Positions 54,020 to 54,951 of a stretch of 64,000 bases of DNA are shown piece by piece. The first letter of the stretch is position 1; each line of letters starts with the position of its first letter. The notes beneath the pieces are model-generated. The model saw only the letters and a program-made list of their open reading frames with translations. It was not told the origin of the DNA and did no database searches. Source of the DNA: a virus; the IMG/VR virus record IMGVR_UViG_3300025450_000016. One strand, 5' to 3'. The translations under genes were made by a program, and so were the position numbers.

Positions 54020-54049
54020 CATTCTTGTTACGATGATAACTAAGCATGA

Positions 54050-54478
54050 ATGACCTGGCTTTTCGAGAACTCCCTTGTAGAAACTCTACCCGAAGACTGT
54101 GTTGGTTTTGTTTATTTGATTACAAATAAGCTGACCGGCAGGATGTATGTTGGAAAAAAATTGGCCAAGTTTAGCAAGACCACTTACCGAATGGTCAAAC
54201 TAAAAAATGGCAAAAAGAAACGTAAAAAAATCAAGGGAAAAATAGATTCAGACTGGCAAACATATTATGGCTCGAATACGGAATTAAACAAGGATGTGGC
54301 TGAACTGGGCGAAGAAAATTTTACAAGAGAAATACTGTATTATTGTCGAAGCAAAGCTGAATGCAGCTACATCGAAGCAAGGGAACAATTTTCACGCAAA
54401 GTGTTAGAAACAACAAATTATTATAACGGACACATACAGGTTCGTGTACACGGCTCACACATTATCAACAAGATATAA
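54050..54478 (+). CDS. stand-alone GIY-YIG nuclease (T4 EndoII/Seg-like) with Lys-rich insert
   Basis: GFVYLITN..GRMYVGKK, WQTYYGS, F.REIL, conserved E (YIEAREQ), YYNG; insert KLKNGKKKRKKIKGK. Confidence 0.85.
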   Translation: MTWLFENSLVETLPEDCVGFVYLITNKLTGRMYVGKKLAKFSKTTYRMVKLKNGKKKRKKIKGKIDSDWQTYYGSNTELNKDVAELGEENFTREILYYCRSKAECSYIEAREQFSRKVLETTNYYNGHIQVRVHGSHIINKI

Positions 54479-54529
54479 TCTTCAGACAACAAGTCTAAAT
54501 GCATTAAAACCCAATATTATACAGTAATG

Positions 54530-54880
54530 GCTCGCACAGGCTAAACACGTGTGCCTACGACAACTCGATGACAAGAGGGACGGAAATCTTGCCGCTGTAG
54601 CAAGTGCTCAATCACTATCCTTAACAGGACGAAGATCGCTAATTGCCGCGGTTTGATTGTTTGAAGATTATATAAGGCTAAAAAGACGTGCTAGTGATAG
54701 CACACGTTGGTATTGAATGTTAGCGTATTTGATATTGACCGCCGTTGTAAAAGACGCATCTCGAGGTACCGGACAACCGCCTCTGTAATGGTGTAACGCT
54801 AAGTGACTGTGCTACTCGGATAATGCTACAGATCTATACTTTGCCCTGAGCGGGCAAAGTGTGACCAATTAATCTGGATA
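54530..54880 (+). ncRNA. candidate large structured ncRNA, family not recognised
   Basis: No ORF of 60 aa or more. At least nine stems read by eye, including a three-way junction, a GNRA-capped hairpin, a predicted pseudoknot and a long-range closing helix. G-U pairs indicate the plus strand. Confidence 0.6.
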
Positions 54881-54908
54881 ATACTGAAAAACATCAAAGA
54901 AGAAAAAC

Positions 54909-54951
54909 ATTTCTGAACGAAGTGAAAGAAATAGATTAGCGTAGCTAATCT
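54909..54951. terminator. hairpins between convergent transcription units
   Basis: ATTTCT..AGAAAT stem and AGATTAGC-GTA-GCTAATCT (54933-54951), which abuts the stop codon of the 54951..55169 gene. Confidence 0.5.

What the first reader, a model, noticed from the sequence alone, without database searches (positions are those of the whole stretch)
54037..54950. Candidate GIY-YIG nuclease plus ncRNA ribonucleoprotein system
Seen: a 142-aa GIY-YIG catalytic domain with no appended DNA-binding domain but a very basic insert (KLKNGKKKRKKIKGK), followed at once on the same strand by the structured region. Known: compact nuclease plus adjacent large RNA is the layout of IscB/TnpB OMEGA systems, which use different nuclease folds. 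T4 EndoII is also a stand-alone GIY-YIG and needs no RNA. Inference, speculative: the RNA may scaffold, guide or inhibit the nuclease, for example in host DNA degradation or phage competition.
Basis: inference. Interest (0 to 1): 0.8.

Follow-up and report, generated by a model that had tools for sequence, protein, structure and literature searches.

The report
Small phage nuclease beside twin-box RNA
A small DNA-cutting enzyme gene of an uncultured freshwater T4-like phage is followed by a real folded RNA of about 430 bases (an extended form of the known but unexplained Polynucleobacter-1 RNA); the two are tightly linked neighbours, but the evidence argues against the RNA being the enzyme's guide or dedicated partner.

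Summary
Both parts are real. ORF 54050-54478 is a 142-aa stand-alone GIY-YIG nuclease (Pfam SegE_GIY-YIG, E 4e-32). Its catalytic residues are intact, the AlphaFold2 model is confident, and the closest fold is I-TevI.

Bases about 54527-54950 encode a covarying structured RNA of about 430 nt. Its first third is Rfam RF01718 (Polynucleobacter-1, 89.9 bits). The rest is a conserved 3' core with two always-identical boxes.

Linkage in uncultured T4-like phages is strong in both directions, and the nuclease-RNA junction is interrupted in only 6 of 95 loci, against 88% and 65% for the flanking junctions.

The ribonucleoprotein or guide reading is disfavoured:
- The RNA sits in 27 of 27 bacterial integrative islands without the nuclease.
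- An unrelated PD-(D/E)XK nuclease replaces the GIY-YIG in about 10 phage loci.
- Five complete cultured phages with the nuclease lack the RNA.
- No guide-like segment exists.
- No nuclease residue covaries with the boxes.

Weinberg et al. (2010) already noted the upstream gene family. This scan has met this RNA more than 300 times on other DNA.

Best reading: an autonomous RNA of unknown function, co-transcribed behind a DNA-metabolism nuclease.

The parts
54050..54478 (+). Stand-alone GIY-YIG nuclease gene, 142 aa, of the family SegE_GIY-YIG / phrog_447 / cyanophage T4-GC 213 (mis-annotated 'NAD synthetase')
   Evidence: Pfam E 4e-32; PHROG 447 E 3e-36. Y22, Y33, G35, R93 and E109 are invariant and N126 nearly so in 35 homologues. 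AlphaFold2 pLDDT 94.3. I-TevI catalytic domain Z 8.4, T4 EndoII Z 5.4. 35% identical to P-SSM2 PSSM2_218.
54167..54247 (+).
   Evidence: DSSP strands 40-50 and 56-66 in the model. The stretch is covered by the Pfam profile, so it is a family feature.
54479..54528 (+). 50-nt spacer between the stop codon and the RNA; no sigma-70-like promoter or terminator on the + strand
   Evidence: Promoter and terminator scan. In relatives the spacer is about 10-50 nt.
54529..54662 (+). RNA 5' domain, Rfam RF01718 Polynucleobacter-1
   Evidence: 89.9 bits, E 3e-19, model positions 1-141 of 141.
54663..54932 (+). RNA 3' core, not in the Rfam model: covarying helices and the nearly invariant word GGTACCGGACAACCGCC at 54765-54781, then an A-rich linker and a hairpin (54909-54932) with a conserved 12-nt loop
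   Evidence: Alignments of 25 and 76 homologues and helix statistics. The same boxes are visible in the raw 2010 alignment.
54814..54823 (+). Twin box 1 (ACTCGGATAA)
   Evidence: Its variable six letters are identical to those of box 2 in 173 of 173 distinct phage RNAs, with 6 different words. Mutual information with box 2 is 0.98-1.00, and no third column covaries comparably.
54872..54881 (+). Twin box 2 (ATCTGGATAA)
   Evidence: As for box 1. The boxes are also present and mostly identical in nuclease-free bacterial islands, with other words.
54933..54951 (.). Terminal hairpin that abuts the stop codon of the convergent 72-aa gene; probable end of the RNA and a two-way terminator
   Evidence: Helix with 6 of 7 pairs changed on both sides. 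Scored as terminator-like on the minus strand.
49559..51328 (+).
Evidence: Conserved upstream anchor in 80 loci.
54951..56014 (-). Convergent genes: a conserved 72-aa protein (54951-55169) and a T4_baseplate protein (55175-56014), the downstream anchors of the locus
   Evidence: Pfam PF12322 E 2e-16; synteny in 69 loci.

Best explanation
The ORF encodes an active, stand-alone GIY-YIG DNA nuclease of a family that is widespread in T4-like phages. The stretch behind it encodes an autonomous structured RNA of about 430 nt: a Polynucleobacter-1 5' domain plus a conserved twin-box 3' core.

In a large clade of uncultured freshwater T4-like phages the two form a co-oriented unit. It sits at the end of the rightward gene cluster that starts with the gp46-like gene, just before the convergent baseplate genes.

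The RNA is most likely made by read-through from the nuclease gene's transcript. The spacer is only 10-50 nt and has no promoter or terminator. This would explain why the junction is rarely broken.

The RNA is not a guide or dedicated cofactor of the GIY-YIG enzyme. It works with or without that enzyme, and its twin boxes are read by something else that is still unknown.

The nuclease more probably acts on DNA, as a structure-specific or host-DNA nuclease alongside the gp46/47-type recombination nuclease. An unrelated resolvase-like PD-(D/E)XK nuclease can stand in for it.

Shown: the identity of both parts, the linkage, the exceptions and the absence of covariation. Inferred: co-transcription and the nuclease's DNA role. 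The function of the RNA is unknown.
For: - Identities.
- Linkage: the RNA core lies downstream in 71 of 77 protein-seeded loci. The GIY-YIG gene is upstream in almost every RNA-seeded locus with at least 750 nt available. In a sample seeded only on the baseplate gene, at least 55 of 66 loci have both.
- Junction stability: nuclease to RNA is interrupted in 6 of 95 loci, gp46-like to nuclease in 67 of 76, and RNA to baseplate in 45 of 69. All inserted genes are co-oriented.
- Autonomy of the RNA: 27 bacterial loci have no GIY-YIG or PD-(D/E)XK hit, and 14 of 14 tested reach RF01718 at 53-104 bits. They lie beside DUF6641 and tyrosine recombinases. L181 has the RNA with no nuclease directly upstream.
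- Nuclease displacement: the PD-(D/E)XK family PF24608 takes the slot in L123, L247, L255, L282, L299, L301 and L311, lies further upstream in L264 and L283, and hits L234 (context not examined); it never occurs together with the GIY-YIG. Its relatives are annotated as resolvase-like.
- Free assortment: both nuclease folds occur with both kinds of RNA 5' domain.
- Nuclease without RNA: five of five complete cultured phages, no blastn match among 50,697 phage records, and P-SSM2 gene 218 abuts the next gene.
- No box-protein covariation: maximum mutual information 0.11 of 0.95 bits.
Against: - A junction kept intact in 94% of loci within a very plastic region could also reflect a functional partnership rather than mere co-transcription.
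- In nearly all phage loci the gene directly upstream of the RNA is a nuclease of one fold or the other, which co-transcription alone does not explain.
- The nuclease has a basic beta-hairpin arm that could bind RNA as well as DNA.
- No transcript data were available, so co-transcription is untested.
- The DNA role of the nuclease rests on analogy only.
- The bacterial-island RNAs are a divergent subfamily and might work differently.
Confidence: 0.6

Rival explanations
1. Functional nuclease-RNA partnership. The RNA scaffolds, positions, activates or inhibits a small nuclease of either fold. For example, it might present two identical boxes to a dimeric or tetrameric enzyme, or it might form an RNA-DNA structure that the nuclease must cut.
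For: - The junction is interrupted in only 6 of 95 loci, against 88% and 65% for the neighbouring junctions.
- A nuclease of one of two unrelated folds sits directly upstream of the RNA in most phage loci.
- The protein has a basic beta-hairpin arm.
- The twin boxes are identical in 173 of 173 RNAs, which suggests a two-fold reader.
Against: - The RNA and its twin boxes persist in 27 bacterial island loci without either nuclease.
- In L264 and L283 the nuclease lies about 5 kb from the RNA.
- Homologous nucleases in five complete cultured phages have no such RNA.
- Two unrelated folds are unlikely to share one specific RNA-binding mode.
- No nuclease residue tracks the box state.
- There is no guide-like segment.
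Confidence: 0.15
2. The GIY-YIG gene is a free-standing homing endonuclease (Seg-like) parked beside a conserved RNA gene that holds its cleavage site, as T4 SegB sits among tRNA genes. On this reading the PD-(D/E)XK gene is a second selfish endonuclease that took the same site.
For: - The Pfam family is named after SegE, and the closest fold is the homing endonuclease I-TevI.
- Weaker PHROG matches are annotated as homing endonucleases.
- Different nuclease families occupy the same intergenic slot.
- Conserved RNA genes are typical homing targets (general knowledge of T4 seg genes).
Against: - The protein has no DNA-binding domain; the nuclease domain fills all 142 aa.
- One or the other nuclease occupies the slot in nearly every locus, rather than sporadically.
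- The protein is more conserved than the neighbouring baseplate protein: 64% against 48% mean column identity.
- The family is found in hundreds of cyanophage genomes at other positions without this RNA.
Confidence: 0.1
3. The RNA is a cis-acting replication element, a structured primer or R-loop RNA in the manner of ColE1 RNA II or the T4 origin transcripts. Phages and small integrative elements of the same hosts share it, and the adjacent structure-specific nuclease processes the hybrid or the resulting branches.
For: - The RNA is shared between T4-like phages and small islands that carry integrases and a clamp-loader-like ATPase.
- Either of two nuclease folds, one annotated as resolvase-like, sits beside it.
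- There is one copy in this record.
Against: - There is no GC-skew inflection at the locus.
- Extensive RNA-level covariation and a strict twin-box rule are not features of known origin transcripts.
- The locus has no AT-rich unwinding element or iterons.
- Nothing here tests replication.
Confidence: 0.1

Closest known systems
Polynucleobacter-1 RNA motif (Rfam RF01718; Weinberg et al. 2010, PMC2864571)
   Same: The 5' third of the RNA matches the whole model at 89.9 bits. The 2010 supplement already says that most examples lie downstream of one gene family (GOS11034, 'possible homology to PSSM2_218') and that a 3' half is 'not always detected'. I show that PSSM2_218 is a homologue of this nuclease.
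   Different: - The Rfam model covers only about 140 of about 430 nt.
- The 3' twin-box core, the alternative 5' domains, the identity of the upstream gene as a GIY-YIG nuclease, and its replacement by a PD-(D/E)XK nuclease are not described there.
- The function remains unknown.
T4 endonuclease II (DenA), a stand-alone GIY-YIG nuclease
   Same: It is a single-domain GIY-YIG enzyme of about 140 aa in a T4-like phage that needs no RNA. Relatives of the window's enzyme lie near nrdB in Melnitz and P-RSM4; from memory, denA does so in T4.
   Different: The structural match is only moderate: Z 5.4 against 8.4 for I-TevI. There is no sequence similarity. The beta-hairpin arm is different. A role in host-DNA breakdown is inferred, not shown.
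I-TevI and the T4 Seg homing endonucleases
   Same: The catalytic domain has the closest fold (1ln0, Z 8.4, 82 residues aligned, rmsd 2.7), and the Pfam family is named after SegE.
   Different: The window's protein lacks the linker and the DNA-binding domain that give those enzymes their site specificity. It is near-universal and well conserved in its clade, not sporadic.
OMEGA systems (IscB or TnpB with their omega RNAs; HEARO RNA)
   Same: The layout is similar: a compact nuclease gene with a large structured RNA directly adjacent on the same strand. HEARO came from the same 2010 survey.
   Different: - The nuclease fold differs.
- There are no transposon ends.
- There is no variable guide at an RNA end.
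- The RNA and the nuclease each occur without the other.
- The nuclease can be swapped for an unrelated fold.
Large orphan structured RNAs of phages and mobile elements (GOLLD, ROOL)
   Same: It is a large, ornate, strongly covarying RNA of unknown function carried by phages and integrative elements.
   Different: There is no sequence or model similarity: no Rfam hit other than RF01718. The twin-box rule and the nuclease neighbour are particular to this family.

Membership tests
Rfam RF01718 Polynucleobacter-1 RNA | Covariance-model score at or above the gathering score (37 bits) over the full model | tested here: met
   89.9 bits, E 3e-19, model positions 1-141 of 141, + strand.
Rfam RF01718 Polynucleobacter-1 RNA | Helices supported by compensatory changes among homologues | tested here: met
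   The helices at 54534-54554, 54561-54578, 54588-54604, 54609-54659 and 54634-54653 each have 4-7 pairs changed on both sides, with 84-99% canonical pairing.
Rfam RF01718 Polynucleobacter-1 RNA | Position downstream of the GOS11034 / PSSM2_218-like gene (2010 supplement) | tested here: met
   The upstream ORF is 35% identical to PSSM2_218, E 4e-17.
GIY-YIG nuclease superfamily (Pfam PF19835 SegE_GIY-YIG) | Profile score above the curated cut-off | tested here: met
   111.5 bits against a cut-off of 25; the whole profile is covered.
GIY-YIG nuclease superfamily (Pfam PF19835 SegE_GIY-YIG) | GIY and YIG motifs, a conserved Arg, the catalytic Glu and Asn | tested here: met
   Y22, Y33, G35, R93 and E109 are invariant and N126 is at least 90% conserved in 35 homologues. 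Which basic residue plays the role of I-TevI R27 was not resolved.
GIY-YIG nuclease superfamily (Pfam PF19835 SegE_GIY-YIG) | GIY-YIG alpha/beta fold | tested here: met
   Model pLDDT 94.3. Structural matches: I-TevI Z 8.4, PD-T4-3 Z 7.4, UvrC N-terminal domain Z 5.6, EndoII Z 5.4.
Free-standing homing endonuclease (Seg type) | Nuclease domain joined to a sequence-specific DNA-binding domain | tested here: not met
   The protein is 142 aa and is filled by the nuclease domain.
Free-standing homing endonuclease (Seg type) | Sporadic presence or absence among close relatives at a given site | tested here: not met
   The GIY-YIG is present in at least 55 of 66 baseplate-seeded loci, and most of the others carry the PD-(D/E)XK nuclease.
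Free-standing homing endonuclease (Seg type) | Site-specific cleavage of the allele that lacks the endonuclease, followed by gene conversion | not testable with these tools
   This needs enzyme assays and mixed infections.
OMEGA-type RNA-guided nuclease (IscB / TnpB) | RuvC (with or without HNH) nuclease encoded within an IS200/IS605-type element | tested here: not met
   The fold is GIY-YIG. The locus sits at a fixed syntenic position between phage core genes, with no transposase.
OMEGA-type RNA-guided nuclease (IscB / TnpB) | A variable guide segment of constant length at one end of a conserved RNA scaffold | tested here: not met
   The 5' side is the conserved end of the ORF plus a spacer of 10-50 nt. 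The 3' end is a covarying hairpin that abuts the next gene. The variable internal stretches are hairpin insertions or an A-rich linker of varying length.
OMEGA-type RNA-guided nuclease (IscB / TnpB) | Obligate co-occurrence of the nuclease and its RNA | tested here: not met
   The RNA occurs without the nuclease in 27 of 27 bacterial loci and in L181. The nuclease occurs without the RNA in five of five complete cultured phages.
Type III toxin-antitoxin (ToxIN-like) | A tandem array of short RNA repeats beside an endoribonuclease toxin | tested here: not met
   The RNA is one non-repetitive fold of about 430 nt. The protein has a DNA-nuclease fold.
T4 EndoII (DenA)-like host-DNA nuclease | A stand-alone GIY-YIG enzyme of a T4-like phage that nicks or cuts host DNA | tested here: inconclusive
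   The architecture fits. The structural match is Z 5.4, rmsd 3.6, 84 residues aligned. There is no sequence similarity, and the activity was not tested.

The most novel reading that the evidence does not exclude
The small nuclease and the twin-box RNA are true partners in a new kind of RNA-assisted DNA transaction. The RNA, through its two identical boxes, would hold two copies of a target or two enzyme subunits. Any small structure-specific nuclease, whether GIY-YIG or PD-(D/E)XK, could then be recruited to cut there, for example to start replication or to process recombination intermediates. The nuclease-free bacterial islands would borrow the phage's or the host's enzyme.
Probability: 0.08. 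Interest if true: 0.85.

Novelty: new variant of a known kind. Interest (0 to 1): 0.4.

Why it matters
The RNA is one of the larger orphan structured RNAs of phages. It is very common in freshwater T4-like phages and in small integrative elements of Polynucleobacter and related bacteria, and nobody knows what it does.

They also document how stable the nuclease-RNA junction is, and show that two unrelated nucleases can fill the slot. This narrows the search. The nuclease family, mis-annotated 'NAD synthetase' in hundreds of phage genomes, deserves testing as a DNA-structure nuclease.

If the minority reading (a real partnership) were true, it would be a new class of RNA-assisted nuclease.

Tried and rejected
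- blastn of the ORF-plus-RNA region against 50,697 cultured phage records gave no match.
- phmmer of the nuclease against PDB sequences gave nothing meaningful.
- Foldseek against PDB gave only weak rows, with I-TevI at probability 0.89. VIA-align was needed.
- The single-sequence RNA folding energy is not significant, z -1.76.
- The promoter and terminator scan found no + strand promoter before the RNA.
- The GC-skew profile has no inflection at the locus.
- A search for a third RNA column that covaries with the twin boxes found none. The helix between the two boxes proposed by RNAalifold does not survive the box variants (my reading).
- Mutual information between box state and GIY-YIG residues is at background level.
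- The fold of the island neighbour DUF6641 (pLDDT 77) gave only coiled-coil-like rows with Z below 6, which neither shows nor excludes a nuclease.
- The 375-aa protein that precedes the RNA in L264, L265 and L283 has no Pfam or PHROG hit. The protein atlas gave only a weak lead to PP-loop ATPases.
- A first single-protein scan with the baseplate gene found only 3 loci. An alignment query was needed.
- A literature search found no RNA-guided GIY-YIG system.
- The group I intron and tmRNA ideas were dropped. There was no Rfam or ARAGORN hit, and the flanking genes are separate ORFs on opposite strands.
- No EndoVII (PF02945) is present in the own record or in five cultured relatives. This fits, but does not show, a resolvase-like role for the nuclease.

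Full report
**What is there**

The window comes from a 133-kb uncultured virus record with T4-like genes. ORF 54050-54478 on the + strand encodes 142 aa. It matches Pfam PF19835 SegE_GIY-YIG at E 4e-32, with residues 3-129 covering the whole 123-position profile. It matches PHROG 447 at E 3e-36 over its full length.

In an alignment of 35 homologues of 54-83% identity, Y22, Y33, G35, R93 and E109 are invariant and N126 is nearly so. The catalytic set of a GIY-YIG enzyme is therefore kept.

The AlphaFold2 model is confident, pLDDT 94.3. Its best structural matches are:

| Match | Z |
|---|---|
| I-TevI catalytic domain (rmsd 2.7, 82 residues aligned) | 8.4 |
| GIY-YIG restriction enzyme PD-T4-3 | 7.4 |
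| UvrC N-terminal domain | 5.6 |
| T4 EndoII | 5.4 |

It is extra relative to I-TevI but is part of the family's own profile. No DNA-binding domain is appended.

**The RNA**

After a 50-nt spacer, Rfam RF01718 (Polynucleobacter-1) matches 54529-54662 at 89.9 bits, against a gathering score of 37. It is the only Rfam hit in the 64-kb window, and the window has no tRNA.

Homologues from uncultured viral contigs align over about 430 nt, to 54950. On 70 diverse sequences the consensus fold has at least 12 helices. Each holds several pairs changed on both sides, with 84-99% canonical pairing.

Features of the 3' part:
- The 3' core carries the nearly invariant word GGTACCGGACAACCGCC at 54765-54781.
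- Two boxes lie at 54814-54823 and 54872-54881. Their variable letters are identical to each other in 173 of 173 distinct RNAs, although six different words occur.
- No third RNA column covaries with the boxes.
- The RNA ends in a covarying hairpin that abuts the stop codon of the convergent 72-aa gene.
- Some relatives keep this 3' core but have a different 5' domain that RF01718 does not detect.

The raw alignment in the 2010 supplement already extends over this 3' part.

**Linkage**

Three samples were taken.
- Seeded with the protein: 459 relatives were found in IMG/VR and the best 80 were kept. Of the 77 loci with at least 500 nt downstream, 71 have the RNA core. In 63 it lies within 450 nt, and in 8 it follows inserted genes. 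L061 and L066 are clear exceptions.
- Seeded with an 18-nt RNA word: 119 loci were found. Almost every locus with at least 750 nt upstream has the GIY-YIG gene on the same strand, ending about 250-300 nt before the word, at 51-84% identity.
- Seeded only with the baseplate gene, which is unbiased for either part: of 66 loci with enough sequence, at least 55 have both, after variant RNAs are counted.

The unit always lies between a gp46-like gene and the convergent baseplate genes. Its immediate neighbours vary greatly. Junction interruption by inserted ORFs:

| Junction | Loci interrupted |
|---|---|
| gp46-like gene to nuclease | 67 of 76 |
| Nuclease to RNA | 6 of 95 |
| RNA to baseplate gene | 45 of 69 |

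So the pair is a real, unusually stable unit.

**Evidence against a dedicated ribonucleoprotein or guide system**

1. *The RNA occurs without the nuclease.*
   - A word from the bacterial subfamily found 27 loci in Polynucleobacter, Limnohabitans and other Burkholderiales genomes and MAGs.
   - Fourteen of 14 tested reach RF01718 at 53-104 bits.
   - None has a GIY-YIG or PD-(D/E)XK match.
   - The context is a small integrative element. It has a divergent DUF6641 gene, two tyrosine recombinases, a clamp-loader-like ATPase and unknown genes.
   - The twin boxes are there too, with many other words.
   - L181 is a viral contig with the RNA (87.5 bits) and no nuclease directly upstream.
2. *Another nuclease takes the slot.*
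   - In L123, L247, L255, L282, L299, L301 and L311 a 168-189-aa PD-(D/E)XK protein (PF24608, E 1e-22 to 6e-30) sits where the GIY-YIG would be.
   - In L264 and L283 it lies about 5 kb upstream of the RNA.
   - A further hit lies in L234, whose context I did not examine.
   - The two nucleases never co-occur in these loci.
   - Relatives of the PD-(D/E)XK protein in jumbo phages are annotated as resolvase-like.
   - Both nuclease folds occur with both types of RNA 5' domain.
3. *The nuclease occurs without the RNA.*
   - The family is found in 745 cultured phage records, at up to 49% identity.
   - Melnitz, phiN3, P-RSM4, ACP17 and V45v66 have neither RF01718 nor the core word anywhere in their complete genomes.
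   - No cultured phage record matches the region by blastn.
   - In P-SSM2 the homologue abuts the next gene.
4. *There is no guide-like segment.* The variable stretches are hairpin insertions or an A-rich linker of varying length, and both RNA ends are constrained.
5. *There is no co-evolution.* No GIY-YIG residue tracks the box state; the maximum mutual information is 0.11 of 0.95 bits.

**Prior knowledge**

The supplement of Weinberg et al. (2010) states that most Polynucleobacter-1 RNAs lie downstream of genes of family GOS11034, 'with possible homology to PSSM2_218', and that none had been found in a purified phage. PSSM2_218 (145 aa, annotated 'NAD synthetase', T4-GC 213) is 35% identical to the window's protein, E 4e-17. 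The association itself is therefore 16 years old. The gene was not then recognised as a GIY-YIG nuclease.

This scan has met the RNA more than 300 times on other DNA. Earlier agents described the twin boxes, the PD-(D/E)XK context and the nuclease-free islands. I re-tested each of these here.

**Interpretation**

The most economical reading has three parts.
- The RNA is an autonomous element of unknown function.
- In phages it is probably made by read-through from the nuclease gene. The spacer is short, it has no promoter or terminator, and every inserted gene is co-oriented.
- The nuclease is a DNA enzyme that belongs with the recombination-nuclease cluster. A resolvase-like enzyme can replace it, and no EndoVII is found in this record or in five cultured relatives that carry the family.

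The second and third parts are inferences.

The stability of the junction, and the fact that the upstream gene is nearly always a nuclease, keep a functional coupling alive as a minority reading. The homing-endonuclease reading is weakened by the missing DNA-binding domain, the near-universal occupancy and the strong conservation of the protein. The replication-element idea cannot be tested here.

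Noticed in passing
window 54814-54823 and 54872-54881; 173 related loci: Two boxes about 58 nt apart carry the same variable word in 173 of 173 RNAs (six words in phages, many more in bacterial islands). They are identical rather than complementary, and no third covarying partner exists in the RNA.
   Followed up: partly
L021:3427-3870, L045:3427-3886, L002:2910-3400, L044:3427-3800: Close relatives (nuclease 75-85% identical) keep the RNA's 3' twin-box core but have a different, RF01718-negative 5' domain. The RNA is therefore modular.
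   Followed up: partly
L123:8819-9385, L282:7843-8349, L299:9028-9549, L247:8647-9153, L255, L311: A PD-(D/E)XK nuclease (PF24608, annotated as resolvase-like in jumbo phages) replaces the GIY-YIG in the same slot and never occurs with it. This looks like non-orthologous displacement.
   Followed up: yes
L205-L231 (for example L231:6950-7088 RNA, 7274-7711 DUF6641, 5034-5600 small recombinase): Small integrative elements of Polynucleobacter, Limnohabitans and other Burkholderiales carry the RNA. Beside it lie a divergent DUF6641 gene, two tyrosine recombinases and a clamp-loader-like ATPase, but no nuclease. These may be satellites or islands related to the phages.
   Followed up: partly
window 51288-53586: Two adjacent radical SAM/SPASM proteins (334 and 434 aa), then a 147-aa protein with a weak carbohydrate-binding-module match. 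They are inserted between the gp46-like gene and the nuclease, and relatives have other accessory genes there.
   Followed up: no
phage records such as NC_006883 176711-177148 and NC_015283 165230-165685: The GIY-YIG family (PHROG 447, T4-GC 213) is annotated 'NAD synthetase' in hundreds of cyanophage and other phage genomes. This appears to be a propagated mis-annotation.
   Followed up: partly
L091, L097, L171, L176, L247 (genes between nuclease and RNA): The rare insertions between the nuclease and the RNA are co-oriented accessory genes: a methyltransferase-like protein, unknowns of 257-266 aa, and a 72-aa QSregVF_b-like protein.
   Followed up: partly
window 54951-55169 (-): A conserved 72-aa protein with no family match lies between the RNA and the baseplate gene in 36 related loci. 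Its stop codon overlaps the RNA's terminal hairpin.
   Followed up: no
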